Origin: a bacterium
GTDB taxonomy: Bacteria; Patescibacteriota; Minisyncoccia; JAHIHE01
Length of the DNA stretch: 64,000 nucleotides
Assembly: GCA_030693205.1 (NCBI GenBank)
Contig: JAUYBG010000006.1
Location: 68,015 to 132,014 of the forward strand
Reading direction: 5' to 3'
The notes under the pieces are model-generated. The model did not search any database, was not told the DNA's origin, and saw only the letters and a program-made list of their open reading frames with translations. Shown here one piece after another: positions 20,174 to 37,185 of this stretch (its first letter is position 1; each line of letters begins with the position of its first letter). The translations under genes and the position numbers were made by a program.

Positions 20174-20866
20174 TTTTAACATCTCGTTAACCCAATTATA
20201 AACACTTGGATACTTTTTCCACAAACGACTACCTTGTAAAATCAAATCTTTATGATCTGGATAACCGATATTTTTTATTTTTCCATGCAAAGAAATAAAA
20301 TCTTCAGTATCTTGGATTACAGCATTAAACACTTCTGCCATACCCCATAACTTTCCTTGTTCAGTATCCATCTTTCTAGTCTCGGGAAAGTTTTTTTGCA
20401 CAAAATCATAAAATATAAAATGGAGCATTTCGTGAAAAATAGTAAAAAGCTGAAAACTGCGATTATTATAAATAAAAACCTGAAACTCACCTGAATCAAG
20501 AAAACGAGGACAAAAATCAAATATAGAAAAATCGCCAATATATTTTTTCCTTGGCCACGGATACCCATTAAATAACTTACTTACCACTAAAAAGAAATTA
20601 TTTTGTTCTTGATTAATATATTTAATAGTATTTTCACTAAGAATTTTTATTTCTCTGTTATTAGATTTATAAAAATCTATAATGTATTTATTTAAAAATT
20701 TCTTTGGATTTTCAGCTGATTTAATTTCAATAAGTTTCGGATGATACTTCAAAGCTCTTTCCTTCCAAAAATCACACCCTCCAAAATTTGAGCTAAGGTA
20801 AAAATCCCAAGCTTTGACTTGATCTAGTTTTTGATCAAATTTTAATTTTATAATTGGTTGCTTCAT
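20165..20866 (-). CDS. HExxH-motif protein (putative zinc metallopeptidase-like) downstream of radical SAM enzyme A
   Basis: HEMLH motif (TIFHEMLHFIF); same strand, 80 nt after rSAM A. Confidence 0.45.
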   Translation of the reverse strand: MKQPIIKLKFDQKLDQVKAWDFYLSSNFGGCDFWKERALKYHPKLIEIKSAENPKKFLNKYIIDFYKSNNREIKILSENTIKYINQEQNNFFLVVSKLFNGYPWPRKKYIGDFSIFDFCPRFLDSGEFQVFIYNNRSFQLFTIFHEMLHFIFYDFVQKNFPETRKMDTEQGKLWGMAEVFNAVIQDTEDFISLHGKIKNIGYPDHKDLILQGSRLWKKYPSVYNWVNEMLKLF

Positions 20867-20947: not shown

Positions 20948-22336
20948 TTAACTAACCTGCGCTTGCTTATAAAGATCCCAAACAAGCCATTCGAGCGTCA
21001 TTTTCGCATGTACGCAAAAGCGTTTATCGAGTGCCCAAATAGAACCCTCTTCAAGCTCTGCTTGATATGGACAGCCTCCACCACAAATACCTAAAGCAGG
21101 GCAGCTTTGACATTCCGGCATATTCAGAGGCGATCTCATACTCCATTCTCTGAAATCTTTATCATTGCTGATATTAAAGTCGTTGTCGTAGACATTTGTT
21201 GGGAAATATTTCTTTTTACCAACAAACCCATGGCAAACTCCAATATCTCCATCAGGTGCAATCACTATCTGATTGCCCCCAGTTGCTCCGCAGTCAAATG
21301 GCCAAACTGTCTTTTCGATAAAAGCATTCGCTTTTCTCATTATGCGATCTTCGTAGACGCCTCTTTTTCTAAAAACTTGAAAAGCATCAAGAATAAATTT
21401 TGCCGCTCTTTCGTTGTAACCATTATCCATTTTTCCGTCATTACTAATCAGCAGATTTAATCCTAAATTGGATATTCCGCATTCATCCAGTAAAACCCGT
21501 ATGGTAGCGTCGAAATCACGGATACTTGCCTCTGAAAGAGTGCATGACGCACCGATATTCATACCTGCTTCTTTGCAAACCTGAAAGCCTCTTTTGATGT
21601 CTTGATAAACGGGCTCTCCGCTTGCATAGATCCGGCTGGAGTTAGTTGCAAAGTCATCGCCGTCAATTGATATTGAGACCTGAACATCGTGGCTCTTAAG
21701 CATTCTGGCAATCTCGTGATTTAATAAACTTCCATTAGTCACTAGATTAAGGGTTGTTTTTTTGGGAAGCTTACCACTTTCCATGTACTTTTTAATCTTA
21801 TTTAAAAGCATCTCAAGTACTGTCCAATTCAACAAGGGCTCTCCGCCATAAAAAACAATTGTTTTTTCTAGATCAAACTGTTCAGGATCTTCTGCAATTA
21901 ATCGACAAAAGAAATCAAGTCCTTTAAAAGCTATCTCCTCTGTCATATTACCCATGGGATTATTATTTTTTACAAAACAATAACCGCAACGGAAATTACA
22001 CCTTTCTGTTAGGATGACATAGGCTAAGTGGGGATAAGGCTTGCCAAGCAAATCCATGAAATAATCAATAGCTTTTTTATCTTCTGCGGGATCCTGGATC
22101 AAAACTTTTACATTTTTAAGGGCATCAACCGCTCTTAAAAAAGTTTCTTGATCTTTTGAGCCAACAAGCGCGAGTAGGCTTTGCGAATCAGCGCCTCCCT
22201 CAAATTTCTTAATTATCGGCAGAAGCGCATCCGGAATATAAACTGGCATCATCCGAAGAGAATGATAGCAAGCTATTACAGGTTTTTGCTCAAAAAAATG
22301 AGCGTATCTTGAAAGGAAAAGGGTTGTTCTTTCCAT
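20948..22336 (-). CDS. radical SAM/SPASM peptide-modifying enzyme A with an N-terminal RRE-like domain
   Basis: CNFRCGYC (CxxxCxxC); C-terminal SPASM cysteines (CGATGGNQ...CHGF...CQSCPALGICGGGCPYQ); AGGAGG ahead of the ATG. Confidence 0.8.
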   Translation of the reverse strand: MERTTLFLSRYAHFFEQKPVIACYHSLRMMPVYIPDALLPIIKKFEGGADSQSLLALVGSKDQETFLRAVDALKNVKVLIQDPAEDKKAIDYFMDLLGKPYPHLAYVILTERCNFRCGYCFVKNNNPMGNMTEEIAFKGLDFFCRLIAEDPEQFDLEKTIVFYGGEPLLNWTVLEMLLNKIKKYMESGKLPKKTTLNLVTNGSLLNHEIARMLKSHDVQVSISIDGDDFATNSSRIYASGEPVYQDIKRGFQVCKEAGMNIGASCTLSEASIRDFDATIRVLLDECGISNLGLNLLISNDGKMDNGYNERAAKFILDAFQVFRKRGVYEDRIMRKANAFIEKTVWPFDCGATGGNQIVIAPDGDIGVCHGFVGKKKYFPTNVYDNDFNISNDKDFREWSMRSPLNMPECQSCPALGICGGGCPYQAELEEGSIWALDKRFCVHAKMTLEWLVWDLYKQAQVS

Positions 22337-22433: not shown

Positions 22434-22577
22434 TTACCATAGCGATTTATCTATGCCCTTGTTGTATCTACATGCGCACTTACACGCACATGTACCACAT
22501 TTGGCTGCATGTACAGTATTTGCAGCATTACCTAGCACCTTAGCGGCATCTACCGCTGTTGGCGAAATAACATCCAT
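22434..22577 (-). CDS. candidate precursor peptide A (47 aa, five Cys)
   Basis: Unannotated ORF MDVISPTAVDAAKVLGNAANTVHAAKCGTCACKCACRYNKGIDKSLW; AGGAGG nine nt upstream; 97 nt upstream of rSAM A. Confidence 0.55.
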   Translation of the reverse strand: MDVISPTAVDAAKVLGNAANTVHAAKCGTCACKCACRYNKGIDKSLW

Positions 22578-22595: not shown

Positions 22596-22684
22596 GTTTT
22601 AAAAGAACTCATCTGGCTAAATAGCTTCTATTTAGCCATCCTTCCTTGAGCACAACTCTAACAAATCCGGGAGTTTTGTCAATG
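22596..22684 (-). promoter_or_regulatory. conserved promoter plus 5'-UTR hairpin element, copy A
   Basis: Minus-strand TTGACA-16nt-TAGAGT, then a 10-bp-stem hairpin ggctaaatag/ctatttagcc and agatgagttcttttaaaa before the SD; copies at 29237-29322 and 31934-32019. Confidence 0.5.
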
Positions 22685-24562: not shown

Positions 24563-25984
24563 TTATGGATTAACGTTGATCTGAACTCTATCCATAATAG
24601 GACCGTAACAACCATTCTTACTAGTTATTCTTAACCACCCCTCATACTTACCAGCTGCCGCATATGTCGTCGATGTCATACCTCCAGTATATGTTACATC
24701 AAATAATGCATTACCGAGAACACCTAAAACACCAAGTAATAAATCACAATTCGTTGTTTCACTTTTTGCATAATCTGATGTCCATCCTAACCATGGGGTA
24801 GTATAATCGATCTCATATCTATCTACCCCGTTATCAAAACCCGGACCATCACTGAGAACATCGGTTTTTAAATTTGGATAAGCATAGTCCGCTGAATAAG
24901 TTCTTCCATCGAAATAAACAGTTTCACCCACTTTAACGCTTACTTGTTTTCCCATAGGCATAAAAGTTGTCCCTACCCTTAAATCCGCTTTCATACAATG
25001 ATACAACCCATCGCTTGCCCAAGACGGATTTGAACAAATATCTTTGCAGGCAAGCTTTCCCGAAACAAAAATTTTCGCCGGATGTCGCGGGTAATCGGTT
25101 GCGATGCAGGCAGGAACTCCGGTAGCGGTAAAATTTACTACATTACTGGCAATAAAAGTTGAGCTGGAATACGGATCAGTTTCCGGAAAAATCGCCTGAA
25201 GTTTTACATCATCGGCACAAAATGTAGGAAGCGTAGACAAAATAGAAAAAATACCGCTAGCGTTCGTTTGTATTTGAGTATATCTCATTCCATCAATTCC
25301 TGCCCCATCATTAATAACATATACTCTTATATTGGTGTTAACCACGGGATTACCGCTTGCATCAGTAAGCTTCCCTGCCAGAGTTACAGAAGCGCCAACA
25401 GCCGCGGATGCTCCGTCTGCGGGAGAGGTTAAAGTGATTTTAGCGGGAGCATTAGGACTGACAAAAACATCTGCTTCCATATTATCTATGCAATGGCACG
25501 GCGCATTAACTGTTCCATTTCCCAATGAACCGGGTCCATCGCACATCTCAAGCGGATCGCTTGCCGTCGGACTATAACCTACCGCACTCCACGGCATCGC
25601 CGGATTTTTAAGCACTAGAATATCGGGGTTGATCGTGTTAATAATCACCCAAGAAGAAATGGCCAGAAGAAGGCCGATAATTGCCGAATTAATCGTGTGT
25701 TTGGCATCTTCGATGGCTGAAGGATTGCCGGCGGAAGTCAGATATCTTGCGCCCCCGATGACGATCGCGCCCATCGCCACAATACCGACTACGGAAATAA
25801 GAAAAGTATAAAGCCCGGAAAGATAGACTTGAACTTTTGCGCCGGGTGGAATGCCGGGAATAGTGACCAAAGCGTTATAAGTTGTCTGAGCTAAAGCGGA
25901 ATTCGAATAAAAAAATAAGCTTAGTAAAAATATAATGCTAGCTAAAACTATTTTTTTGTTTTTGCTAAAAATTTTTAAAATCAT
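24563..25984 (-). CDS. large secreted/membrane protein with an N-terminal TrbC/VirB2-like (T4SS pilin-like) domain
   Basis: Signal peptide; YLSGLYTFLISVVGIVAMGAIVIGGARYLTSAGNPSAIEDAKHTINSAIIGLLLAISSWVI pattern typical of CPR pilin-like proteins; large extracellular C-terminus. Confidence 0.45.
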   Translation of the reverse strand: MILKIFSKNKKIVLASIIFLLSLFFYSNSALAQTTYNALVTIPGIPPGAKVQVYLSGLYTFLISVVGIVAMGAIVIGGARYLTSAGNPSAIEDAKHTINSAIIGLLLAISSWVIINTINPDILVLKNPAMPWSAVGYSPTASDPLEMCDGPGSLGNGTVNAPCHCIDNMEADVFVSPNAPAKITLTSPADGASAAVGASVTLAGKLTDASGNPVVNTNIRVYVINDGAGIDGMRYTQIQTNASGIFSILSTLPTFCADDVKLQAIFPETDPYSSSTFIASNVVNFTATGVPACIATDYPRHPAKIFVSGKLACKDICSNPSWASDGLYHCMKADLRVGTTFMPMGKQVSVKVGETVYFDGRTYSADYAYPNLKTDVLSDGPGFDNGVDRYEIDYTTPWLGWTSDYAKSETTNCDLLLGVLGVLGNALFDVTYTGGMTSTTYAAAGKYEGWLRITSKNGCYGPIMDRVQINVNP

Positions 25985-26014: not shown

Positions 26015-26172
26015 TTATACAATTATTGGGGTTTTTAGACAAGCGTGAACTATATATTTTCCCAAATTTTATCTTTATCTTTATCTTCCTGCCGCACCGG
26101 CAAAATTACGGTAAAAGTCGAGCCTTTACCTTCCCCTTCCGAGATTACCTTAATTTTTCCGTGACAGTACTT
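26015..26172 (-). pseudogene. histidine kinase 3'-end fragment, copy 1
   Basis: DNA-level homology to the last ~50 codons of the HK gene at 32065-34050 (cctgccgcaccggcaaaattacggtaaaagtcgagcc...); the +strand track ORF 26026-26220 is a wrong-strand artefact. Confidence 0.5.
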
Positions 26173-26850
26173 TTATTTTTTCTTTCCAATAATAATTACT
26201 CGCCGACTATTAATATTTAATTTCTCCATATCATAATTTCCATATACTGAAGATATGAATAAGTTATTATCGTTAAACTTTCTTTTAAGTTCTGGAAAAG
26301 TATAATACCTTACTCCTTTATTACTATGATCTTTGTCTACGACAAGCTCCATCTTGGTAAAATCAAATTTATATGGAGCTTTCGGATTTTCTCTTAAATA
26401 GCCGATAACCCTAAATACATTATCGCAGTCCAGTAAAAACATTCCATTCTTTTCCATTATTTTAGTAATATTTTTCAATGTTTCGTCAGGCTCAATCATT
26501 CTAAGATCAGAAAAAAATAAGAATATTTTATTATACTTTTTTTTAAGATCTAATTTATGAATATCCTGTGTAAAAAAATTTATCTCTAAATTTTCTTGTT
26601 TGGCGTGCTTTTTGGCAACCTCGATCAAATAATCGGAAAAATCCAAACCATCAATATTATATCCTCTTTTTTTAAGCTCAATAGTATGCCGTCCGTTACC
26701 GCAAGCAACATCTAATATCTTGTCTCTCTTTTTTAATTTTAAGGATTTAATAAGAAAATCAACGTCTTTTTGCAGCTGTTCCGGGGAAAAATATTCTTTA
26801 TGCTCTTCTAGATAAGAACCTTTTGGACCATAATACCGTTTTAGACTCAT
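26173..26850 (-). CDS. class I SAM-dependent methyltransferase
   Basis: Motif I (ILDVACGNGRH) and post-I acidic residue. Confidence 0.8.
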   Translation of the reverse strand: MSLKRYYGPKGSYLEEHKEYFSPEQLQKDVDFLIKSLKLKKRDKILDVACGNGRHTIELKKRGYNIDGLDFSDYLIEVAKKHAKQENLEINFFTQDIHKLDLKKKYNKIFLFFSDLRMIEPDETLKNITKIMEKNGMFLLDCDNVFRVIGYLRENPKAPYKFDFTKMELVVDKDHSNKGVRYYTFPELKRKFNDNNLFISSVYGNYDMEKLNINSRRVIIIGKKK

Positions 26851-26864
26851 AATTTTATTTATAA

Positions 26865-27608
26865 TTATATTTTTACTCCAACAATAATCATTCTCTTGCT
26901 GTTAAAATCAAAATTCTCTCCTTCATAAGATCCATAAACTTTTTTTATCCTTAAACCATTTTCTTCTAAGATTTTTTTAATTTCTGGAAAAGAATACAGT
27001 CTTAAAATATATTCGGATTTTTTTTGTTTTCCTTTTTCTGTAATTTTTAGTTTTACATGGTCTTGGAAAGTAATTGGATTAAAAGCATGATTTTCCAAAA
27101 TATTTTTTTTACCATTTTTGTATTTAAAAACACTTTTAAAATGAGATAAAAAATAACAAATATTCCGAGTGTCAATTATAAATTTCCCTTTACGATTTAA
27201 TGATTTAGAAATATTTTCAATAATTTTTCTGTTGTCGCTATCGCTAAAATATCCGAATGAAGTAAAAAGATTAAGAATAACATCAAATCTTTTTTTAAAT
27301 AAAAACTTACAAATATCCCCATAAATAAAATCTGCTTTAACGCCTTTTTCTTTGGCAATATTTTTTCCAACTCTTAAAAAAGGTTTTGAATAATCAATGC
27401 CCACCACATTATATCCTCTTTCTGCTAATCCAATCATATGTCTGCCCCAGCCACAACATAAATCTAAAATTTTGTCTTCTTTTTTTAATCTTAAAATATT
27501 AATGATAAAATCAATTTCTTTTTTGGTTCTCTTGTCGTCAAAAAGAAAATAATAAAGCTCTAAATAATCTTTATTAAAATAGTATTTCCACCAATTATTT
27601 TTAATCAT
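26865..27608 (-). CDS. class I SAM-dependent methyltransferase, paralog of 26173-26850
   Basis: ILDLCCGWGRHMIGLAERGYNVVGIDYS. Confidence 0.8.
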   Translation of the reverse strand: MIKNNWWKYYFNKDYLELYYFLFDDKRTKKEIDFIINILRLKKEDKILDLCCGWGRHMIGLAERGYNVVGIDYSKPFLRVGKNIAKEKGVKADFIYGDICKFLFKKRFDVILNLFTSFGYFSDSDNRKIIENISKSLNRKGKFIIDTRNICYFLSHFKSVFKYKNGKKNILENHAFNPITFQDHVKLKITEKGKQKKSEYILRLYSFPEIKKILEENGLRIKKVYGSYEGENFDFNSKRMIIVGVKI

Positions 27609-27681: not shown

Positions 27682-27707
27682 AACTGTAAAATTTGAATTT
27701 TACAGTT
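27682..27707 (-). terminator. hairpin plus T-rich tract at the stop of rSAM B
   Basis: aactgtaaaat/attttacagtt perfect inverted repeat. Confidence 0.35.
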
Positions 27708-29025
27708 ATAAACTTTTTAAATTCCAGCAAGTCTGATCGGCATGAACATCATCGCCAAATTTTGACATAGATATTCCCTTGCATCCTCCATTGCACGACA
27801 AAGAAAATTTACATACTAGACATTCTTGTACTATATCCATCGAAAACGGATTTGTTTTTTCCCAAATCGAACGGATATTATTATTCGTCAAATTTCCTAA
27901 AACCGGAAGTCGCGAATGTGGACAAGGAGTAATTTTTCCGTCGAAAGTTATATTACAAATACTTCTTCCTGCTTCACATCCTCTTATTGCTTTTATAGAT
28001 TGATCTATAAGAAAAGGAAAAAATACCAATTTCTCGTAAGAAATCATTTTGGGGTATTTTTTTTCTAACAAAACCAATGTTTCGGTCGCGATTCTGAGTT
28101 GGTCGCTTGTTAATTTAGAAAGAGAATTTGCTCTTCCTTCTTGCATACATCTAAAAGCAATAAACCAGTCTATTCCTAAATCATAAACAGCTAAAAATGT
28201 TTCTTCTATTTTATCAAAGTTTAGATTATTAACCGTCATTGCGCAGCGAACATTCATTCCCTGATTTTTAAGAATCGTAATCGCTCTAATGGCTTTTTCG
28301 TATACTCCTTTTCCTCGAATAAAATCGTGTATCGTTTCTGGACCATCAATGCTTACTTGAATTACCGATAAACCTGTTCTCGATAGTTTTGCCGCTCTTC
28401 TTTTAGTTACCAATATTCCATTGGTGCTAAGCGAAACGCTGACACCTTCTTTCGTTGCTCTTTCGATTATTTCATCAAGGCAACAGACAAGCAATGGCTC
28501 TCCGCCACCAAGACCAAGATAGAATATTCCATTATCCAATAGCTGCTTTTCTATCGCAAATATTTGCTCTGCAGATAAAGCATTTTTTGTTAAACCAGAT
28601 CCTGTATAGCAATGCTTGCATCTTAAATTACAAAGATCAGTTAATTCCCAAAAAACTATTGAAGGGAATTTTAATTTGGGAAATACAATAGGTTTATCGT
28701 CTGTATTATTGGAAAATTTTTTAGTTGATAATATTATGCGTCTATTACAGCTATCAAATAAACCAATTTCTCCAATCTGATTTACGAAAGCAATAATTGT
28801 TTCATCGTTTATATTTTTATGCCTTCTTTTTATTTCCTGAACAATGTCACTAAGACTGATTTCTCCTGTGCATAATTCTATAATTTCTATTCCAATTTTA
28901 TTTACCCGAAAACATATTTGATCAGTTTCTATGGCTAGCTCTACTGGCGGTTTAACTAATCCACCAAAATTTTCTCTGCGATGGCGTACCCCTTTTGTCA
29001 AGTGTGGCTTAAAATCTTGTTCCAT
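27706..29025 (-). CDS. radical SAM/SPASM enzyme B with an N-terminal PqqD-like RiPP recognition element
   Basis: N-terminus (VNKIGIEIIELCTGEISLSDIVQEI) is PqqD-like; CNLRCKHC; SPASM C-terminus (CLVCKFSLSCNGGCKG). Confidence 0.8.
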   Translation of the reverse strand: MEQDFKPHLTKGVRHRRENFGGLVKPPVELAIETDQICFRVNKIGIEIIELCTGEISLSDIVQEIKRRHKNINDETIIAFVNQIGEIGLFDSCNRRIILSTKKFSNNTDDKPIVFPKLKFPSIVFWELTDLCNLRCKHCYTGSGLTKNALSAEQIFAIEKQLLDNGIFYLGLGGGEPLLVCCLDEIIERATKEGVSVSLSTNGILVTKRRAAKLSRTGLSVIQVSIDGPETIHDFIRGKGVYEKAIRAITILKNQGMNVRCAMTVNNLNFDKIEETFLAVYDLGIDWFIAFRCMQEGRANSLSKLTSDQLRIATETLVLLEKKYPKMISYEKLVFFPFLIDQSIKAIRGCEAGRSICNITFDGKITPCPHSRLPVLGNLTNNNIRSIWEKTNPFSMDIVQECLVCKFSLSCNGGCKGISMSKFGDDVHADQTCWNLKSL

Positions 29026-29111
29026 TATTAACCTCCATATAATTCAATTTCTTGTCTAAATAAAATATTTGGAATTATTGCCTTTTAAAAAACAATAATT
29101 CCAAAACCCGT

Positions 29112-29219
29112 CTAATCTCCGGCATAAGTTGGGAGCATTACGCATCCTGTAGATATCCTTTCTATTACTGGACTTTCTTGCTCCGAATCTTTCTCTGTCT
29201 TAGAATTTTCTAAACCCAT
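29112..29219 (-). CDS. candidate precursor peptide B (35 aa)
   Basis: MGLENSKTEKDSEQESPVIERISTGCVMLPTYAGD; gaggaggtgaaaaaATG; hairpin ggaattattg/caataattcc between it and rSAM B. Confidence 0.5.
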   Translation of the reverse strand: MGLENSKTEKDSEQESPVIERISTGCVMLPTYAGD

Positions 29220-29236
29220 TTTTTCACCTCCTCAAA

Positions 29237-29322
29237 TTTTAAAAGAACTCATCTGGCTAAATAGTTTCTATTTAGCCATCCTTCCTTGCGTATAACCCTA
29301 GCAAATCCAGGGGTTTTGTCAA
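29237..29322 (-). promoter_or_regulatory. conserved promoter plus 5'-UTR hairpin element, copy B
   Basis: TTGACA-16nt-TAGGGT and the same hairpin, with loop tttc instead of gctt. Confidence 0.5.
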
Positions 29323-29334
29323 ATACTGACTCCC

Positions 29335-29580
29335 GCTGATTACTTATATTGGGGTTTTTAGACAAGCACGAACTATATATATTCCCAAATTTTATCTTTA
29401 TCTTCCTGCCGCACCGGCAAAATTACGGTAAAAGTCGAGCCCGCGCCTTCCCCTTCCGAGACCACCTTAATTTTTCCGCCATGCTTGGCTATGATCTGCT
29501 TGGCGATAAAAAGTCCCAGGCCGGAACCGTTCGGATTGATATAATTGGATTTTTTCCCGCGTGAAAATTTTTGAAAAATC
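29335..29580 (-). pseudogene. histidine kinase 3'-end fragment, copy 2
   Basis: ~240 bp homologous to the last ~75 codons of HK 32065-34050 (ATP-lid to C-terminus), with the stop region mutated. Confidence 0.55.
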
Positions 29581-30332
29581 TATTTTAGACCACCTTTCCA
29601 TTCCTTTTCTAATTCTTCGATCGATTTTTCGAAACCATTTTCAATAATTTTTAAATTTTCCTCGGAATTATTTAATCGCGACAATCTTTGGTAAGTTTTT
29701 TTAAACTTATCCCATCCGTAAGTATTGATTAAAAATCTGACAAAAGAGCCAACTTCCGGATAAATTATTTTAGAATCAACCTTTTCCCAATTTTTATTAT
29801 CAATTAAGTTTTTGATAGAATACAGTTTTTTCTGACTCAATAACTCTTTGGAAATTATATCAATATCCTTACCGAATAAATTTCCTTCCATAAACTGAGC
29901 TAATCCCTCGCAAAACAAATATATCGATAACCCAAGGGATAAAGACAAAAAATGAGTATCTTCATGCTCGCCGATAAACTGGCATTTATCATTATAAATC
30001 GTATGAATTTCAAATTTGTTTGTTTTTGGTTCGCTATTAACTAATTCAAAATCTCCCCAAATCACATTACCAGGGCTGTCATCGCCCATTAAAGATGCTT
30101 TGCTTTTTAAGGACGGATAAATATAATAATGAATAATTTGCTTATTTTTTAAATCAAGAAACGATAAAATTTTATTGTGATGTTTTTCTTTTAGCTTAAT
30201 AATTTTATAAATATCATTTTCAGCTAAAGAATTTTTGAGATAGTAAAAAACATAATGGTTGCTTTTTTGTTTAATCCATTTTTGCCTCAAATAATCGTTT
30301 TTATACCACGGAATTTCTTGTTTTATTTTCAT
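29580..30332 (-). CDS. HExxH-motif protein downstream of radical SAM enzyme C
   Basis: IGEHEDTHF motif; 250 aa; directly after rSAM C. Confidence 0.45.
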   Translation of the reverse strand: MKIKQEIPWYKNDYLRQKWIKQKSNHYVFYYLKNSLAENDIYKIIKLKEKHHNKILSFLDLKNKQIIHYYIYPSLKSKASLMGDDSPGNVIWGDFELVNSEPKTNKFEIHTIYNDKCQFIGEHEDTHFLSLSLGLSIYLFCEGLAQFMEGNLFGKDIDIISKELLSQKKLYSIKNLIDNKNWEKVDSKIIYPEVGSFVRFLINTYGWDKFKKTYQRLSRLNNSEENLKIIENGFEKSIEELEKEWKGGLK

Positions 30333-30406: not shown

Positions 30407-31909
30407 TTATTCAAAGTTTAATTTTACTAATCCCTTATTTATTTTTTCCACAAGTTCACGCCTGCAATATGGTTCTAATAGACTACCTATTGTTACATAG
30501 GCATCAAACCGACATCCTCCGCCACAAATAGGAACGAACGGGCAATCTTCTGAAAGACATTTATCCAGATAGCTAAAATCCATAAATTTTGCATCATCGG
30601 TATTAGCCGTTGAATCTATGTTTCCAAAAGAAAATCCATCTCTTCCTACTGTGCTTATGCATTTAAGCAATGCTCCGTCTGGCTCTATTGTAGCCGAATT
30701 TATAGCTCTCGCGGTACACCAAGGACCGACTAAATATTCTTGAGGAATTACAAATCCTCTTTTCTTTGCTTCCTTGCAAAGCCACAGATATTTATCAGCG
30801 CTCTCGCTAAAACTTAATCCAAATTCATTAAGGTAAGAGTCCGGCGCTCGCTTGCCCATATCTCCGCAAATAGTTGGAGCCACTATACCAAAAGAGAATT
30901 CTATTTTATCCTGCAGTTTATTTTCTGCCAAAAAATCAAACAGCTGCGGTATTAAATCAACATTCTGCCGGTCAAAATTGACTCTAAGGTGAATTTTTTT
31001 AACAAAACCTTGATTTATAGAACTCAAGATATTTTTTGAAATTTTATCAAATGTACCCTTGCCGTCTTTTCTGAACCTTCTTAAGTCGTGTACTTTTCCG
31101 TATCCATCAAGAGTTATCTGAACTCTATCAAGGTTGCATCCGTTTAAGAAAGAGGCAATTTCTTTATCAAAAAATTCACCATTTGTCATTATGCCGAGTT
31201 CAAGTGCTAAGTTTTTTTGCTTGGCTATCGTGTGCAGTTTTGGCAAAATAAATCTGATTGTCTTTTTATTCAATAACGGCTCGCCCCCGTACAGAACTAC
31301 TCTTAGCTTATTGCAACCAGCATGGTTACCTAGATAAGCATCACACCAATTCACTATTTCATCGGCTATTTGAATTGACATTGATTTATGTTTTTCTATT
31401 CCTCTCTCGAAACAGTAAGGGCAGGCCAGCTGGCAATTTCTAGTAAGGACAAGATATATTCCGAAAGTTTTATCATCCAATCTGGCCTTATGGAATAGCT
31501 CTTTGTATTTTAGCTTTTCGTTTAATTCCGCAGGAACGAGCATTTCCATTTTTACGAGCTCATTTATGTAATCGCCTAAATACGAACCAGTAATATTAGA
31601 TTGTCCATTGTTTGTAATTTCATCGATTTCTCTTTTTAGCCGTCCGGTTAATCTTACTGTGCTTGTAGTCAGCGTATTTCTAGCGATGATTTTATCGCTG
31701 TTTTCATATTCAATCCAAAACACAAATCGAGACCATTTCAGTTTCACATCGTTCACCTCTTTGTCATTGATATATTTTTGGGGAAGTTTTATTAAACCTC
31801 CCCCTTTGCTTATGCGGTTAATAACCGCAGCCATCTTTACCCATATCGCCGGTACGGGTTCCGGAATCAGTGCCTTTTTGGAGCACTTCAAAATCTTGGT
31901 TGCCGTCAT
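30407..31909 (-). CDS. radical SAM/SPASM enzyme C
   Basis: CQLACPYC; SPASM (CLSEDCPFVPICGGGCRFD). The track start (31909) overlaps candidate precursor C; the true start may be M26 (31834) or similar. Confidence 0.75.
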   Translation of the reverse strand: MTATKILKCSKKALIPEPVPAIWVKMAAVINRISKGGGLIKLPQKYINDKEVNDVKLKWSRFVFWIEYENSDKIIARNTLTTSTVRLTGRLKREIDEITNNGQSNITGSYLGDYINELVKMEMLVPAELNEKLKYKELFHKARLDDKTFGIYLVLTRNCQLACPYCFERGIEKHKSMSIQIADEIVNWCDAYLGNHAGCNKLRVVLYGGEPLLNKKTIRFILPKLHTIAKQKNLALELGIMTNGEFFDKEIASFLNGCNLDRVQITLDGYGKVHDLRRFRKDGKGTFDKISKNILSSINQGFVKKIHLRVNFDRQNVDLIPQLFDFLAENKLQDKIEFSFGIVAPTICGDMGKRAPDSYLNEFGLSFSESADKYLWLCKEAKKRGFVIPQEYLVGPWCTARAINSATIEPDGALLKCISTVGRDGFSFGNIDSTANTDDAKFMDFSYLDKCLSEDCPFVPICGGGCRFDAYVTIGSLLEPYCRRELVEKINKGLVKLNFE

Positions 31910-31916
31910 TGCTCAT
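31818..31916 (-). CDS. candidate precursor peptide C (32 aa)
   Basis: MSNDGNQDFEVLQKGTDSGTRTGDMGKDGCGY; the same gaggaggtgaaaaaATG context as precursor B. Confidence 0.45.
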   Translation of the reverse strand: MSNDGNQDFEVLQKGTDSGTRTGDMGKDGCGY

Positions 31917-31933
31917 TTTTTCACCTCCTCAAA

Positions 31934-32019
31934 TTTTAAAAGAACTCATCTGACTAAATAGCTTCTATTTGGTCATCCTTCCTTACAATAACCTTAACAA
32001 ATCTCAATAATTTGTCAAT
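31934..32019 (-). promoter_or_regulatory. conserved promoter plus 5'-UTR hairpin element, copy C
   Basis: TTGACA-16nt-TAAGGT; hairpin gaccaaatag/ctatttagtc (one mismatch). Confidence 0.5.
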
Positions 32020-32064
32020 CTTTAGCTTTAATGTACAAGTTATAGATTTTGCAAGTTTTATCCC

Positions 32065-34050
32065 CTATCTTCCCTGCCGCACCGGCAAAGACACGATAAA
32101 AGTCGAACCTTTGCCTTCCCCCTCCGAGATTACTTTGATTTTTCCGTGATGCTTAGCTATGATCTGCTTGGCGATAAAAAGTCCCAGGCCGGAACCGTTC
32201 GGATTGATATAATTGGATTTTTTCCCGCGGGAAAATTTCTGAAAAAGAATTTTTTTATCATCCCCGCTCAAGCCTATGCCCGTATCAGTAAAATAAATAT
32301 TCACGTTATCTTTCTCCCGCTTAACTTCAATAATCAATCCGCCTTTTTCGGTATATTTTTCTGCGTTATCTATTAAGTTCATAAAAACATTGTGAAGAAG
32401 CTTTTCGTCAGCTTCGATCTTCGGAATCTTCTGGGAAGATCTTTTGTATTTCAAATATAAATTCTTTTTTTTGAAATTAAGATTAAGCATTTCGATATTT
32501 TCCTGAAGCATCTTCCGTATATCAATTGGCTGAAAATTCAATTTTAACTCCCCTTCGCTTTCCGTCGCTGTCACCATATCGTTGACGATATTGTTAAGAC
32601 GCTCTGTATTATCCACGATTCTCGCTTTTACTTCCAACTTTTTTTCCGGAGTAGCTTTGTCAAAATCCTTGGCATTCCACATTGAAATAAATCCCCGCAT
32701 TACAGTCAAGGGAGTCCTAAGCTGGTGAGAGACGATATGTAAAAAATCACTCTTCACATCCAATGCGTTTTTAAGCTTGTCTTTGGCTATAGTAAGCTCT
32801 TCGATATTTTTATTCAAATTTTGATAAAATTGAAGGTTATCCATAACTACGCTTACATGCTGGGTAAAAGCATTGATTAGATCTAAATCTCTCGGGCTGA
32901 CTTCCGTAATTTCTTTGGTAAAAATAAAAATCAAAGCTCCTTTTTTCTCGCCTCTGATTGTCATTGGAACCGATGCGAATGTTTTTCCGCCAAGTTTCTC
33001 TTGTATCAATAGGGACGTGGGCTTATCCAACGGCGGACAAATAAAATCCGCTATGTTCGACCCTTTTTCAATTTCGTTATTGAGAATACTTTTGATAACC
33101 AGACCGCAATTTTTAGAATTTTTGCTATCAACAATCAAGCTGTAATCGCTTAATTCAGGCTTAGATAATAAACACCTTGCTTGCCTCATTTTATCTGATT
33201 CTGTGGTAATATAAGCGCAAGCTTTTCCACTATCTTCATCGTAGCGAATTAAAAATGTTCCCATAATACCAAGATGCCCGAGTTTTGCCGGCACAGCATC
33301 CATAATATTCTGCACGCTTTTTTCAATTTCCACTCCCAAAGAAACCATTTTGTTTAAAGACAGAAGGGATTCCAAATCCTGCGTTTTTTCCTCAAGATTT
33401 TTTAATTGATTTCTAATTTGTTCGTATTGACGAATATTATTGATTGCAATAGCCACTTGATCAGAAAAAGTTTTAAGCATTTCCTGCTCTTCTTGAGAAA
33501 ATTCTTTTCTGGTTGAGGTAAAGAATACTACTCCCAAAATTTTGTCTAAAAATATAACAGGAAGAGAAATACAAAGATTCATGCCCATAAATTTCTGCAT
33601 AGTATCAGCCAATGATGCATTTACAGCGGGACTGATAAATTCACTCATATGTGCCCCTACATGAATTTTTCTTGTAAGGTAAGTTTGTACGGTTAAATTA
33701 TCATCAAGATTTAATGGGTAAGTGTGTTCTTTGAATGGCTTATTCAGCCATCCGACAACTTTTTGGCCTAAATATGATTGCGTATAAGACCAAGGTATAA
33801 GTTGCTTATTAATTTCGTCAGGTAAAAACAACACTCCTCCTATGAAATCCATCTCTTCAACCATAACGTTCACCATCTTTTGGGTCAATGCTTCATAATC
33901 TTTGATAGTAACAAGCATAGAGAATATTTTCTGCAAAGTCTTGTAGCGCATCTCTTTTGAGGTTGGTTTTTCTACAAGTCTACCTTTAAATCTATCGGTA
34001 TCAATGTTTGGGAAGATAAGCTTTCTTATTATACCTTGGATTAAGTTCAT
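32065..34050 (-). CDS. cytoplasmic sensor histidine kinase (GAF-GAF-HisKA-HATPase)
   Basis: H-box HQLRTPL; N, G1, G2 boxes (NLIDNAEKYT, DTGIGLS, GSGLGLFIAKQII); no TM segments. Confidence 0.85.
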   Translation of the reverse strand: MNLIQGIIRKLIFPNIDTDRFKGRLVEKPTSKEMRYKTLQKIFSMLVTIKDYEALTQKMVNVMVEEMDFIGGVLFLPDEINKQLIPWSYTQSYLGQKVVGWLNKPFKEHTYPLNLDDNLTVQTYLTRKIHVGAHMSEFISPAVNASLADTMQKFMGMNLCISLPVIFLDKILGVVFFTSTRKEFSQEEQEMLKTFSDQVAIAINNIRQYEQIRNQLKNLEEKTQDLESLLSLNKMVSLGVEIEKSVQNIMDAVPAKLGHLGIMGTFLIRYDEDSGKACAYITTESDKMRQARCLLSKPELSDYSLIVDSKNSKNCGLVIKSILNNEIEKGSNIADFICPPLDKPTSLLIQEKLGGKTFASVPMTIRGEKKGALIFIFTKEITEVSPRDLDLINAFTQHVSVVMDNLQFYQNLNKNIEELTIAKDKLKNALDVKSDFLHIVSHQLRTPLTVMRGFISMWNAKDFDKATPEKKLEVKARIVDNTERLNNIVNDMVTATESEGELKLNFQPIDIRKMLQENIEMLNLNFKKKNLYLKYKRSSQKIPKIEADEKLLHNVFMNLIDNAEKYTEKGGLIIEVKREKDNVNIYFTDTGIGLSGDDKKILFQKFSRGKKSNYINPNGSGLGLFIAKQIIAKHHGKIKVISEGEGKGSTFIVSLPVRQGR

Positions 34051-35742: not shown

Positions 35743-37185
35743 TCAATACGTTATTCCGCATGCTTCGTTTGAGTATGCAGAACCGCCAATGTTATTTGTT
35801 GCTTTTAGGCGGTAGCAGTATTGAGTCATCGACGAAAGAGAAGAATTTATCCAATACCATTTCCCTGCTCCGGGCAAAAGTTCATCATATGCTCCGACAA
35901 GAGCCCCAAAACTGCCAAGAGATACCCAACTTCCACCTGTGCCAGTTTTTCTTTCTATCCAAATATTGGTTTCGTCATATGTATTATCGGTAAAATTCAC
36001 TTGCAAACTAGTCGCTGTTGGATTTGTAACCGATACATTACTTGGTGCATCAGGCACTTGACCATTATATGTCCATGATTGTGTTCCCGGCACAGCGGTA
36101 CTCCACGCGGGAATTAGAGTATAAATTTTATATTTCGCACTGCACCAAGTTGTGTAACAAAAACTTGGACTACGATACCCGACCTGCCCTTGAAGCTTAA
36201 ACTTGTCAGACGCATCATTTCCGTCAGCAGTACGAATATATGTGTAATAATTTGTATTTGCTTGCAAGGCATCTGCTTGAGCAGCTCCTATTGTATAAGA
36301 TAACTCATCAATTTCACAACCAATTCCTTTTGTTGGTTCCATAAATCTGGTATCAATATATGGTTTAGATGCTGCTGGCCAACTAGTAGCTGCATAAGTT
36401 GTTGTCGGGTAACACCCGGGATATGATGTGCTATTCCCGTCTAAATATGTTTTTCTGTCGTAATTATAAAGAATAATTTTATGCTCATAAGTCTGGTCGG
36501 AAGCAAAATTTATTGTATTCCATATCATATTTTGTTGCGTGTATCTTCCACCATAGGAAGAAGGATAGAAATATGAAGTACCAGAGGTTGGGAGTGACAG
36601 GTACATCGGTGTTGTCGTTAATGCTGCGGTACTTATAGTTTCACTACCTGAAAGGTACGCTTCTTTTGGAGCAGTTTTCCCGCGAGTTTGCAGAGCAATA
36701 TCATGCTGATTATTTTTGACATTGATCTTGTCTACTACAAGACCTTTTTTAATTTGATCGATACTGCTGTTCTCGCCTGTTACCGTGATTTTCGTTATTA
36801 AAATATTTTCGATATTACCAGAACTGCCGGACGATAACTGGTTAATACCTTTAACATCAGCAAGGAATGCTTTGCGGTTTTTTATATAATCTTCTTTGAT
36901 GTTTTTTTTGTTTTTAGGATCAACCACGTAAAAATCATGAACGGCTTCGTTATTAACCGTAAAGTTGCTTTCTAATATTATTTCATCAAAGAAAGTATTG
37001 TTTCCTCCTGCAAAAAGCGCATCTAGCGCAATAGGATTTTTAAGTTCAATTTGAACAGTTGAGGTGTTGTTTTTAAGCAAACCTGCATCTCCCGCTTTTG
37101 CCTGCGTTAGTTGTGAATAGTCGAAGCCGGACGCAAGCGCAGTTATTGCAAGCGCAAACACTATGACATAGTAGATATTTTTCAT
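35743..37185 (-). CDS. secreted protein with a C-terminal fibronectin-III-like domain
   Basis: Signal peptide, Asn/Thr/Ser-rich; C-terminus VSVTNPTATSLQVNF...YCYRLKATN. Confidence 0.55.
   Translation of the reverse strand: MKNIYYVIVFALAITALASGFDYSQLTQAKAGDAGLLKNNTSTVQIELKNPIALDALFAGGNNTFFDEIILESNFTVNNEAVHDFYVVDPKNKKNIKEDYIKNRKAFLADVKGINQLSSGSSGNIENILITKITVTGENSSIDQIKKGLVVDKINVKNNQHDIALQTRGKTAPKEAYLSGSETISTAALTTTPMYLSLPTSGTSYFYPSSYGGRYTQQNMIWNTINFASDQTYEHKIILYNYDRKTYLDGNSTSYPGCYPTTTYAATSWPAASKPYIDTRFMEPTKGIGCEIDELSYTIGAAQADALQANTNYYTYIRTADGNDASDKFKLQGQVGYRSPSFCYTTWCSAKYKIYTLIPAWSTAVPGTQSWTYNGQVPDAPSNVSVTNPTATSLQVNFTDNTYDETNIWIERKTGTGGSWVSLGSFGALVGAYDELLPGAGKWYWINSSLSSMTQYCYRLKATNNIGGSAYSNEACGITY

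What the first reader, a model, noticed from the sequence alone, without database searches (positions are those of the whole stretch)
29112..29219. 35-aa single-Cys precursor-like ORF upstream of the RRE-containing rSAM B; hairpin attenuator between them
MGLENSKTEKDSEQESPVIERISTGCVMLPTYAGD, with gaggaggtgaaaaaATG. A 10-bp-stem hairpin (ggaattattg/caataattcc) plus T-rich tract sits between its stop and the enzyme start, which is a classic precursor>>enzyme stoichiometry device. The acidic leader and single Cys near the C-terminus differ completely from precursor A, suggesting a distinct product. Two SAM methyltransferases follow.
Basis: partly seen in the sequence, partly recalled or inferred. 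Interest (0 to 1): 0.65.

Follow-up and report, generated by a model that had tools for sequence, protein, structure and literature searches.

The report
Unannotated precursor peptide for a radical-SAM maturase
The 35-codon reading frame is a real, unannotated gene for a small peptide that the neighbouring iron-sulfur (radical SAM) enzyme very probably modifies, and it belongs to a rare, uncurated peptide family whose 11-residue business end is kept identical across distant microbes, although its chemistry and function remain unknown.

Summary

- The peptide recurs upstream of every relative of rSAM B with at least 34% identity (17 of 17 loci). It is absent from 78 loci carrying more distant rSAMs.
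- The core GCVMLPTY(A/D)G(D/T) is unchanged while leaders diverge and the enzymes fall to about 45% identity. Up to 7 of 11 core codons differ synonymously with no amino-acid change.
- The N-terminus of rSAM B is a genuine PqqD-type recognition element. It exists as a separate PqqD gene in relatives, and its model (pLDDT 85.6) best matches TbiB1, PqqD and TfuB1.
- A hairpin follows the precursor gene in all eight homologous loci folded. The closest relative carries one compensatory pair.

Across the wider family only a leader Pro, the Cys, Pro+4 and an aromatic residue at +6/+8 are conserved. This points to one Cys-centred crosslink, but the chemistry is inferred.

No Pfam or NCBIfam model matches the peptide, and only 11 clusters match among 1.84 billion representatives.

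New here: the same promoter, palindrome and ribosome-binding block precedes three precursor-like ORFs in the window.

The parts
29112..29219 (-). Precursor peptide gene (35 aa). The leader is roughly residues 1-24 (29219..29148). The conserved core GCVMLPTYAGD is residues 25-35 (29147..29115). The stop codon is 29114..29112.
   Evidence: Searches give the ORF. Searches give homologous peptides. One search shows up to 7 of 11 core codons synonymous with 0 non-synonymous. One search shows the 17/17 versus 0/78 co-occurrence with the rSAM clade.
29225..29233 (-). Ribosome-binding site GAGGAGGTG, 7 nt before the ATG. The identical string precedes the 32-aa ORF at 31916.
29295..29322 (-). Promoter-like TTGACA-16 nt-TAGGGT. 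It is conserved as TTGACA-16-TA(G/A)(A/G)GT in all three copies of the 86-nt repeat.
   Evidence: family D3; alignment A4. Promoter function is inferred. The scan reported no promoter-like site at this position.
29254..29278 (.). Perfect palindrome TGGCTAAATAG-N3-CTATTTAGCCA between the promoter-like site and the RBS. It is either an operator or a 5'-UTR stem-loop.
   Evidence: 3 copies in the window against 0 expected, each upstream of a precursor-like ORF. The third copy keeps its symmetry through a paired change (TGAC..GTCA).
29058..29105 (-). 17-bp hairpin (29105..29068) plus the TATTTTATTT tail, lying between the precursor stop and the rSAM B start. It is a terminator- or attenuator-like element.
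   Evidence: L001 has A-U changed to G-C on both arms (GGAGTTATTG/CAATAACTCC); all eight homologous precursor-to-next-gene spacers folded contain a hairpin of 9 bp or more (z -2.1 to -4.2), as do the two other cassettes in the window (z -3.6, -3.7).
27706..29025 (-). rSAM B (439 aa): an N-terminal PqqD-type RRE, a radical SAM core (CNLRCKHC, C132/C136/C139) and a complete 7-Cys SPASM domain (C350, C368, C402, C405, C411, C415, C433).
   Evidence: The closest solved relative of the family profile is SkfB at 134.6 bits. The best NCBIfam hit is MftC at 128 bits, below its 265 cut-off.
28756..29007 (-). RRE (PqqD-like winged-helix) domain, residues 7-90 of rSAM B.
26865..27608 (-). Methyltransferase MT1 (247 aa, class I SAM-dependent). 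Orthologues follow the rSAM in L001 (76%), L006 (40%) and L003 (38%).
26173..26850 (-). Methyltransferase MT2 (225 aa), a 34%-identical paralogue of MT1.
29347..29578 (.). Remnant of the 3' end of the histidine-kinase gene plus spacer. It is a duplicate of 32041..32246 and forms the upstream flank of the cassette.
   Evidence: D1, D2, D5; 29217-29578 matches 31914-32246 at 78% over 364 nt.
26024..26164 (.). Second histidine-kinase 3' remnant, forming the downstream flank. It is a direct repeat of 29347..29478 (89%).
   Evidence: The independent assembly L094 breaks inside both repeats.
31818..31916 (-). Sister element: a 32-aa ORF, MSNDGNQDFEVLQKGTDSGTRTGDMGKDGCGY. It has the same promoter, palindrome and RBS, is followed by a hairpin, and precedes the CefB-like rSAM.
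22434..22577 (-). Sister element: a 47-aa Cys-rich precursor with the same promoter and palindrome block (22597..22682), upstream of a FibroRumin-type rSAM (22336..20948).
   Evidence: (TIGR04136 386.9 bits; TIGR04135 E 5.5e-4).

Best explanation
The ORF encodes the precursor (substrate) peptide of a small RiPP cassette: promoter, palindrome, RBS, precursor, hairpin, RRE-fused rSAM/SPASM maturase, two methyltransferases.

Shown by comparison:
- The peptide is a conserved, translated gene that co-occurs strictly with this rSAM clade.
- Its C-terminal 11 residues are under very strong purifying selection.
- The enzyme's N-terminus is a PqqD-type leader-recognition domain.

Inferred:
- The leader segment P-x-(I/V)-x-x-(L/I/V), which is YxKPx(I/V) in most relatives and SPVIERI here, docks as a strand on the RRE, like the YxxPxL leaders of lasso peptides.
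- This places the core in the rSAM active site.
- The enzyme then makes one modification centred on the invariant Cys26. The most likely one is an intramolecular sulfur-to-carbon thioether, as made by SkfB, closing a ring towards Tyr32 with Pro30 providing the turn.
- MT1 and MT2 then methylate the product. The site is unknown.
- The hairpin with its weak U-tract stops most transcripts after the precursor gene, so that peptide mRNA outnumbers enzyme mRNA.

Leader removal and export are not encoded in the cassette.
For: ORF, RBS and hairpin.

Homologous peptides upstream of the homologous enzymes:
- L001/L095, with 81% rSAM identity in L001.
- L003-L005, L006, L009 and L012/13, with 43-46% identity.
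- These carry the identical GCVMLPTY core while leaders range from net -6 to +10.

Selection: 5-7 synonymous and 0 non-synonymous codon differences in the core between the window and L003, L006 and L013.

Co-occurrence: the motif P.[IV]..[LIVM]..[GSN]C...P.{1,3}[WYF] is in 17 of 17 loci with at least 34% rSAM identity, always on the enzyme's strand. It is in 0 of 78 loci with at most 30% identity, across 762 kb read in six frames.

Family alignment: the invariant columns are leader P17, C26 and P30, and an aromatic residue (Y or W) lies at Cys+6 or +8.

RRE.

Enzyme: CxxxCxxC plus a full 7-Cys SPASM. Nearest solved relatives of the family profile are SkfB (134.6 bits), SuiB, anSME, CteB and PqqE.

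MT1 orthologues occur in four clade-1 loci.

A hairpin follows the precursor gene in all eight homologous loci folded, with a compensatory pair in L001. The attenuator design is described as common in RiPP operons (PMC7113386).
Against: - No chemistry can be read from sequence. rSAM B is below the cut-off of every curated equivalog (best MftC 128 against 265; SkfB 98 against 300; PapB 95 against 340; PqqE 94 against 381).
- Its nearest named relatives make very different bonds: thioether, C-C, and decarboxylation.
- The acceptor residue is a guess, based only on conservation of Pro+4 and an aromatic at +6/+8.
- Sactipeptides usually have several Cys. This peptide has one.
- No protease, transporter or immunity gene sits in the cassette.
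- One relative (L012/L013) lacks the methyltransferase, so methylation is not essential to the family.
- The U-tract after the hairpin is interrupted (UAUUUUAUUU), and in several relatives it is weak. The hairpin could instead be an mRNA-stabilising 3' end or a processing site.
- No charge complementarity was seen between leaders and RREs.
Confidence: 0.85

Rival explanations
1. The peptide is the scaffold of a small peptide-derived cofactor or metabolite, built from the Cys...Tyr segment by the rSAM in the manner of PQQ (PqqA/D/E) or mycofactocin (MftA/B/C). It would then not be a secreted bioactive peptide.
For: - The 8-11 residue core is invariant across lineages whose enzymes are only 43-46% identical. 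This is typical of cofactor precursors and unusual for bacteriocin-like RiPPs.
- The minimal cassette, precursor + PqqD + rSAM, sits among housekeeping genes (MreB, LeuRS, RRF) with no protease, transporter or immunity gene.
- The best NCBIfam hit of the enzyme is the mycofactocin maturase MftC. PqqE is among the solved relatives.
- By eye, the leader YxKPx(I/V)xxLxxG resembles that of PqqA. This is recalled from memory and is a lead only.
Against: - No PqqA or MftA model matches any family member, even at E = 10.
- There are no PqqB/C/F or MftD/E/F-like genes in any cassette.
- The family is very rare and patchy: 11 clusters among 1.84e9 representatives.
- Here it is one of three co-regulated accessory RiPP cassettes. 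It has lower GC than the window (31% against 38%) and is flanked by repeats.
- Clade 2 has a different, longer core with three Cys.
Confidence: 0.12
2. It is a precursor peptide as above, but the rSAM does not make a Cys sulfur-to-carbon thioether. It would instead make a C-C or ring crosslink on the aromatic residue (like SuiB or PqqE), or another change at Cys or Tyr, with Cys serving only as a recognition or metal-binding residue.
For: - SuiB (Lys-Trp C-C) and PqqE (Glu-Tyr C-C) are among the nearest solved relatives. MftC is the best curated hit.
- The aromatic position (Y in clade 1, W in clade 2) is as conserved as the Cys.
- MftA also carries a conserved but unmodified Cys next to its modified Val-Tyr. 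This is from memory and was not tested.
Against: - SkfB, a Cys-Met thioether synthase, is clearly the best solved match to the family profile (134.6 bits against 95.3 for SuiB).
- Cys is the only core residue with a reactive side chain that is invariant in all 22 family sequences.
Confidence: 0.3
3. The ORF is a regulatory leader peptide (uORF). Its translation would control formation of the downstream hairpin and hence expression of rSAM B, as in classical attenuation. It would not be a substrate.
For: A short ORF immediately followed by a terminator-like hairpin upstream of an enzyme gene.
Against: - The amino-acid sequence of the C-terminal 11 residues is conserved through many synonymous changes.
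- The hairpin sequences in the same loci are unrelated.
- No alternative antiterminator pairing is evident.
- The ORF always travels with a PqqD-type peptide-binding domain.
Confidence: 0.02
4. It is a chance ORF in AT-rich intergenic DNA.
For: Short ORFs are abundant here: 119 of at least 20 aa in 9.8 kb. The ORF was not called in either deposited assembly.
Against:: the ORF is conserved in 17 of 17 related loci, under purifying selection, with a strong RBS.
Confidence: 0.01

Closest known systems
Sporulation killing factor system SkfA/SkfB (sactipeptide, Cys-Met alpha-thioether)
   Same: - A short precursor is followed by an rSAM maturase.
- SkfB is the best solved match to the enzyme-family profile (6efn, 134.6 bits).
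- A single thioether from one Cys is the defining rSAM step (established knowledge).
   Different: - rSAM B scores 98 bits against the 300 cut-off of TIGR04403.
- rSAM B has a full 7-Cys SPASM domain.
- The precursor shows no similarity to SkfA.
- The skf operon's cyclisation, export and immunity genes are absent.
- Methyltransferases are present here.
Mycofactocin MftA/MftB/MftC
   Same: - A ~30-aa precursor, a PqqD-type chaperone and an rSAM/SPASM enzyme. The chaperone is separate in most relatives, as MftB is.
- MftC is the best NCBIfam hit (128 bits).
- A highly conserved C-terminal core containing Cys, Val and Tyr.
   Different: - The score is below the 265 cut-off.
- The core does not end in Gly-Val-Tyr; Tyr is internal, 3 residues from the end.
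- No MftD/E/F homologues are present.
- No curated NCBIfam or Pfam precursor model matches the peptides.
PQQ PqqA/PqqD/PqqE
   Same: - A PqqD fold for leader binding (5sxy is the second-best structural match).
- PqqE is among the solved relatives (72 bits).
- A Tyr-containing core.
- The leader resembles xKPxFxxL by eye.
   Different: - No statistical match to any curated NCBIfam or Pfam precursor model.
- No Glu-x3-Tyr motif.
- No PqqB or PqqC.
- PqqE scores 94 bits against a 381 cut-off.
Lasso-peptide B1 (RRE) proteins TbiB1/TfuB1 with YxxPxL leaders
   Same: - They are the best structural matches to the RRE model (5v1u TM 0.64/0.74; 6jx3) and the best PDB sequence-profile hits.
- The family leader motif Y-x-K-P-x-(I/V) parallels YxxPxL (PMC6784204).
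   Different: - There is no lasso cyclase or B2 protease.
- The partner enzyme here is an rSAM.
- The window's own leader has Gln in place of the Tyr (QESPVI).
Imperfect terminators ('attenuators') after precursor genes in RiPP operons
   Same: The precursor is the first gene, and a hairpin with a weak U-tract lies before the enzyme genes (PMC7113386 describes this as the most common design).
   Different: Nothing distinctive. Function was not measured here.

Membership tests
RRE-dependent radical SAM/SPASM RiPP (the general class) | A short precursor gene adjacent to, and co-oriented with, the maturase, and conserved with it | tested here: met
   (17 of 17 against 0 of 78 loci).
RRE-dependent radical SAM/SPASM RiPP (the general class) | A PqqD-like RiPP recognition element, fused or discrete | tested here: met
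   - 48 bits, E 6e-17 against a profile of standalone PqqDs.
- 9 of 10 relatives carry PF05402.
- pLDDT 85.6, top matches TbiB1, PqqD and TfuB1.
- Pfam alone is sub-threshold (19.5 against 23.4).
RRE-dependent radical SAM/SPASM RiPP (the general class) | A CxxxCxxC radical SAM cluster motif plus the 7-Cys SPASM motif | tested here: met
   the invariant residues are C132/136/139 and C350/368/402/405/411/415/433. Radical_SAM E 3.8e-25 and SPASM E 6e-6.
RRE-dependent radical SAM/SPASM RiPP (the general class) | The peptide is actually modified by the enzyme | not testable with these tools
   This needs co-expression and mass spectrometry.
Sactipeptide / ranthipeptide | A Cys sulfur to alpha (or beta/gamma) carbon thioether in the product | not testable with these tools
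   Only an invariant Cys and the SkfB similarity point this way.
Sactipeptide / ranthipeptide | The maturase reaches the cut-off of a curated sacti- or ranthi-synthase model (SkfB, AlbA, StsB, PapB, RumMC) | tested here: not met
   SkfB 98 against 300; PapB 95 against 340; StsB 89 against 625; AlbA 72 against 850.
Mycofactocin | The precursor ends in ...Gly-Val-Tyr and matches the MftA model | tested here: not met
   The peptide ends ...PTYAGD. There was no NCBIfam hit at E up to 10.
Mycofactocin | The MftC equivalog score | tested here: not met
   TIGR03962 scores 128.3 bits against a cut-off of 265.
Mycofactocin | MftD, MftE and MftF genes in the cluster | tested here: not met
   The cassette genes are only the rSAM and two class-I methyltransferases. 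The relatives' cassettes are no richer.
PQQ biosynthesis | PqqA with Glu-x3-Tyr, PqqE at equivalog score, and PqqB/PqqC present | tested here: not met
   There is no Glu-x3-Tyr in the core. No Pfam or NCBIfam model of any kind matched the precursors. PqqE scores 93.9 against 381. No PqqB or PqqC is in the cassette.
FibroRumin / CefA-type Cys-rich rSAM peptides (the neighbouring cassettes) | A Cys-rich core, and TIGR04136 or NF038107 as the maturase | tested here: not met
   The 35-aa peptide has one Cys. rSAM B's top NCBIfam hits do not include these models, which match the other two rSAMs in the window.

The most novel reading that the evidence does not exclude
The invariant C-x3-P-x-(Y/W) core is the substrate for a bond type not yet described for radical SAM enzymes, for example a Cys-to-aromatic crosslink. 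Alternatively, the whole cassette makes a PQQ- or mycofactocin-like peptide-derived cofactor in small-genome uncultured bacteria. Either would explain why the core is frozen across lineages and why the minimal cassette has no protease, exporter or immunity gene.
Probability: 0.15. Interest if true: 0.85.

Novelty: new member of a known kind. Interest (0 to 1): 0.5.

Why it matters
The finding adds a real but unannotated gene to the record and defines a small, uncurated RiPP precursor family. Its core is unusually rigid, and comparative data supply a clear substrate motif: leader Pro, then Cys-x3-Pro-x-Tyr/Trp.

That motif, together with a compact three- or four-gene cassette, makes the chemistry directly testable by co-expression.

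The window also shows three different rSAM peptide cassettes wired to one promoter-and-palindrome block, with mosaic leaders and duplicated flanks. This suggests that such cassettes are exchanged or duplicated as modules downstream of a sensor-kinase gene.

If the product proves to be cofactor-like or to carry a new crosslink, the interest would be considerably higher.

Tried and rejected
- **Exact-core DNA scan.** Scanning metagenome contigs for the degenerate back-translation of GCVMLPTYAG found only one contig. That contig was already known through the enzyme, so the scan gave no new contexts.
- **GTDB representative genomes.** Scanning them with the rSAM profile returned no clade-1 member. 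The best hits were 34-35% clade-2 loci.
- **Full-length AF2 model of rSAM B.** It was unusable for the N-terminal domain (pLDDT below 50 for residues 1-58 and 72-115). This was solved by modelling the domain alone with a deeper alignment.
- **Charge complementarity between leaders and their RREs.** No pattern emerged.
- **Literature.** The strings VMLPTY and SQRPDW are absent from the searchable library. The supplement of the rSAM compendium (PMC10288494) is not held. Keyword searches found nothing on this family.
- **Response regulator.** I looked near the histidine kinase for one that might bind the palindrome. None was recognised by Pfam.
- **The two HExxH proteins of the neighbouring cassettes.** They are not homologous to each other.
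- **PqqA and MftA similarity.** Seen by eye, it is not supported by any HMM and is kept only as a lead.
Full report
**1. Observation**

The feature is on the minus strand. The ORF runs 29219..29112 and encodes MGLENSKTEKDSEQESPVIERISTGCVMLPTYAGD. GAGGAGGTG lies at 29233..29225, 7 nt before the ATG.

After the stop comes a hairpin.
- The folding energy is -17.9 to -21.1 kcal/mol, depending on the flanks included.
- The z-score is -3.1 to -3.5, and 2 of 200 shuffles fold as well.
- The consensus scan lists it as terminator-like; the region gave 8 such sites against 2.9 expected.

rSAM B starts at 29025 behind its own GGAGG. It carries Radical_SAM (E 3.8e-25) and SPASM (E 6e-6) domains. Two class-I methyltransferases follow at 27608..26865 and 26850..26173.

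All elements of the observation are therefore present. A 35-aa ORF by itself means little, because there are 119 ORFs of at least 20 aa in 9.8 kb.

**2. Is it a gene?**

Homologues of rSAM B are few.
- An identical copy comes from an NCBI MAG labelled only 'bacterium'.
- One 81% relative was found.
- A group at 41-49% identity lacks the N-terminal ~110 residues.
- More distant relatives lie at 34-37%.

I fetched their contigs. A small ORF lies upstream of the enzyme in every one, in the same orientation:

| Locus | Peptide |
|---|---|
| L001 | MDSEKSLEFEVLREGTDSEQENPVIERISTGCVMLPTYAGT |
| L095 | MGLESSKTEKDSEQESPVIERISIGCVMLPTYAGD |
| L003-5 | MKKMEKKNKKKKAYQKPTIKKLAIGCVMLPTYAGD |
| L006 | ...KYQKPEVEKLAVGCVMLPTYAGD |
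| L009 | ...CYQKPQVKPVAIGCVMLPTYDGD |
| L012/13 | ...CYQKPQVKPVAIGCVMLPTYAGD |

.

The core GCVMLPTY is identical, while the leaders run from strongly acidic to strongly basic and the enzymes share only 43-46% identity. At codon level, 5-7 of the 11 core codons differ synonymously between the window and L003, L006 or L013, and none differs non-synonymously.

I ran a regular expression for the shared motif over all 95 fetched loci (762 kb, six frames).
- It hits all 17 loci whose rSAM is at least 34% identical to rSAM B.
- It hits none of the 78 loci with at most 30% identity.
- Every hit is on the enzyme's strand.

The ORF is therefore translated, and its C-terminal sequence is what selection preserves.

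None of the window's three small ORFs is in the ~15-billion-protein collection, although neighbouring proteins of the same MAG are. The gene is unannotated.

**3. The wider family**

A profile search found a second clade with the core SCSQRPDWxCGPC(K/R/S)(A/V)(Y/F)..., plus one intermediate sequence, SCIQSPNPEW.

Across 22 sequences the invariant columns are a leader Pro, the Cys, and a Pro four residues later. An aromatic residue (Tyr in clade 1, Trp in clade 2) sits at Cys+6, or at +8 in one sequence. The leader consensus is (Y/F)-x-(K/E)-P-x-(I/V)-x-x-(L/I/V)-x-x-(G/S)-C.

Clade-2 cassettes carry a second rSAM and no methyltransferase. The segment common to all substrates of the B-type enzyme is therefore C-x3-P-x-(Y/W).

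The family is rare and uncurated.
- A full HMMER scan of 1.84 billion representatives found only 11 clusters.
- No Pfam or NCBIfam model matches any member, even at E = 10.
- The core strings do not occur in the searchable literature.

**4. The recognition domain**

Pfam PqqD is sub-threshold on rSAM B (19.5 bits against 23.4). In the 41-49% relatives, however, the missing N-terminal part is a separate 92-103-aa gene between precursor and rSAM, and that gene hits PF05402.
- A profile of six such genes matches rSAM B residues 7-90 at 48 bits, E 6e-17.
- A combined profile finds lasso-peptide PqqD chaperones, TbiB1, TfuB1 and PqqD as its best PDB hits.
- Nine of its 10 database relatives carry PF05402.
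- An AF2 model of residues 1-102 has pLDDT 85.6.
- Its best structural matches are TbiB1 bound to its leader (TM 0.64/0.74), PqqD, TfuB1, and the RRE domains of SuiB, TruD, ThcOx and PbtF.

The RRE is real. It is fused in this lineage and split in others.

**5. The enzyme and the likely reaction**

The family alignment keeps CxxxCxxC and the complete seven-Cys SPASM motif. rSAM B is below the cut-off of every curated equivalog:

| Model | Score (bits) | Cut-off |
|---|---|---|
| MftC | 128 | 265 |
| SkfB | 98 | 300 |
| PapB | 95 | 340 |
| PqqE | 94 | 381 |

.

Against solved structures the family profile is closest to SkfB (134.6 bits), then SuiB (95), anSME (77.5), CteB (76.6) and PqqE (72).

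SkfB makes a single Cys-to-Met thioether. Cys is also the only invariant core residue here with a reactive side chain. My best guess is therefore one intramolecular thioether from Cys26, with Pro30 forming the turn and Tyr32 (Trp in clade 2) the probable acceptor or ring boundary. This step is inference. I give the thioether about 0.4, and other chemistry on the same peptide about 0.3.

MT1 has orthologues after the rSAM in L001, L003 and L006, and MT2 is its paralogue. Its solved relatives include glycine/sarcosine N-methyltransferases, the lanthipeptide methyltransferase LahSB and the cypemycin N-terminal methyltransferase. The methylation site cannot be assigned. L012/L013 lack a methyltransferase altogether.

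**6. The hairpin**

I folded the spacers between the precursor gene and the next gene in eight homologous loci (the window, L001, L003, L006, L007, L008, L009, L013). Every one contains a hairpin of 9 bp or more (z -2.1 to -4.2), although the sequences are unrelated between lineages. The window's two other precursor-to-rSAM spacers also contain one (z -3.6, -3.7).

In L001 both arms changed together, from GGAATTATTG/CAATAATTCC to GGAGTTATTG/CAATAACTCC.

An imperfect terminator after a leading precursor gene is described as the most common way RiPP operons raise peptide over enzyme levels (PMC7113386). Termination itself was not measured, and the U-tract is interrupted.

**7.

An 86-nt block is repeated three times, at 22597-22682, 29237-29322 and 31934-32019.
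- Each copy holds TTGACA-16 nt-TA(G/A)(A/G)GT and a perfect 11-3-11 palindrome, TGGCTAAATAG-N3-CTATTTAGCCA.
- In two copies the identical GAGGAGGTGAAAAAATG follows.
- The palindrome occurs only at these three places in the window, against 0 expected.
- The third copy keeps its symmetry through a paired change.

Each copy precedes a small ORF that is followed by a hairpin and an rSAM/SPASM gene:
- the Cys-rich 47-aa FibroRumin-type precursor at 22577..22434;
- the 35-aa ORF studied here;
- a 32-aa ORF at 31916..31818, MSNDGNQDFEVLQKGTDSGTRTGDMGKDGCGY.

The 32-aa ORF overlaps the start of the mechanically listed 500-aa rSAM ORF. The CefB model, however, begins to align only at residue 57, and a GTG with a good RBS lies at about 31747. 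The long ORF is therefore over-extended, and the small ORF is probably a third precursor.

Its leader head, DFEVLQKGTDS, is shared at DNA level with the L001 version of the present peptide (LEFEVLREGTDS...). Leaders are therefore mosaics.

The whole block upstream of the 35-aa ORF (29217-29578) is a 78% copy of 31914-32246, which includes the last ~180 nt of the GAF histidine-kinase gene. A further remnant follows MT2; 26024-26161 is 89% identical to 29347-29478.

The cassette thus sits between direct repeats and has 31% GC against 38% for the window. An independent short-read assembly breaks in exactly these repeats. This looks like modular duplication or exchange of RiPP cassettes behind one regulatory unit. 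I found no response regulator nearby.

**8. Comparison and verdict**

The cassette works like a standard RRE-dependent rSAM/SPASM RiPP system, and all testable class features are met. It is not a member of the mycofactocin, PQQ, SkfA/B, PapB or FibroRumin families, because defining features were tested and not met.

The resemblance of the leader to PqqA and to lasso YxxPxL leaders (PMC6784204) is a lead about binding mode, not a membership claim.

Novelty: a new, uncurated family within a known kind.

Two features are unusual: the frozen core, and the absence of protease and exporter genes, including a minimal cassette set among housekeeping genes in L012/L013. These keep open a cofactor-like or new-crosslink reading, which I put at about 0.15.

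Overall interest is moderate. The finding is correct and useful, and it is directly testable by co-expression. Its architecture, however, is conventional.

Noticed in passing
window 31818-31916 (-): A 32-aa ORF, MSNDGNQDFEVLQKGTDSGTRTGDMGKDGCGY, has the same promoter, palindrome and RBS as the 35-aa ORF and its own downstream hairpin. It overlaps the mechanically listed start of the 500-aa CefB-like rSAM ORF. The true start of that rSAM is probably a GTG near 31747, since the CefB model begins to align only at residue 57. This is likely a third, unannotated precursor ending in GCGY.
   Followed up: partly
window 22597-22682, 29237-29322, 31934-32019: An 86-nt repeat holds TTGACA-16-TA(G/A)(A/G)GT and a perfect 25-nt palindrome, TGGCTAAATAG-N3-CTATTTAGCCA. 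It lies upstream of three different rSAM-peptide cassettes, which suggests one regulon. Whether it is an operator or a 5'-UTR stem-loop is undecided. L001 has a longer palindrome with the same GCTAAAT core at the equivalent place.
   Followed up: partly
window 26024-26164, 29347-29578, 32041-32246: The 3' end of the GAF histidine-kinase gene (34050..32065) is present three times: the real end and two remnants. The remnants flank the 35-aa-ORF cassette as direct repeats. The cassette has 31% GC against 38% for the window, and a Logan assembly (L094) breaks in both repeats.
   Followed up: partly
L001 225-350 compared with window 31916-31818 and 29219-29112: The precursor in L001 is a mosaic. 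Its N-terminal leader (LEFEVLREGTDS) matches the window's 32-aa ORF at DNA level, and the rest matches the 35-aa ORF. The window's 35-aa ORF looks like the same leader with an 18-nt deletion.
   Followed up: partly
window 22434-22577 (-) and 20948-22336 (-): A 47-aa Cys-rich ORF, MDVISPTAVDAAKVLGNAANTVHAAKCGTCACKCACRYNKGIDKSLW, gives a weak TIGR04135 hit (E 5.5e-4). It is followed by a hairpin and an rSAM scoring 386.9 bits on TIGR04136, just under the 400 cut-off. This peptide is also absent from the protein collection.
   Followed up: partly
window 29580-30332 (-) and 20165-20866 (-): Two unrelated proteins with HExxH motifs (HEDTH and HEMLH) end the two neighbouring cassettes. The first gives a sub-threshold Peptidase_MA_2 hit (30.5 bits against 32.4). 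They are possible leader peptidases. The 35-aa-ORF cassette has none.
   Followed up: partly
L003 1093-4818 (-): In the JGI contig that carries a clade-1 cassette, the gene upstream is a 1241-aa Cas12a (Cpf1)-type protein (Pfam REC1, cas_Cpf1_2nd, RuvC_1).
   Followed up: no
L002, L007, L008, L010, L014: Clade-2 precursors (core SCSQRPDWxCGPC...) sit between or beside two rSAM/SPASM genes, and in L010 next to an HTH_3 regulator and a transposase. They occur in MAGs labelled Gammaproteobacteria and Spirochaetota. This core also matches no curated family.
   Followed up: partly
window 24563-25984 (-) and 35743-37185 (-): These are large secreted or surface proteins. The first has a T4SS_pilin domain (PF18895, E 7e-9) followed by sub-threshold Ig-like domain hits. 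The second has only a sub-threshold Ig-like hit. Together with low GC and the NCBI label 'bacterium', this hints at a small-genome uncultured lineage. The taxon was not established.
   Followed up: no
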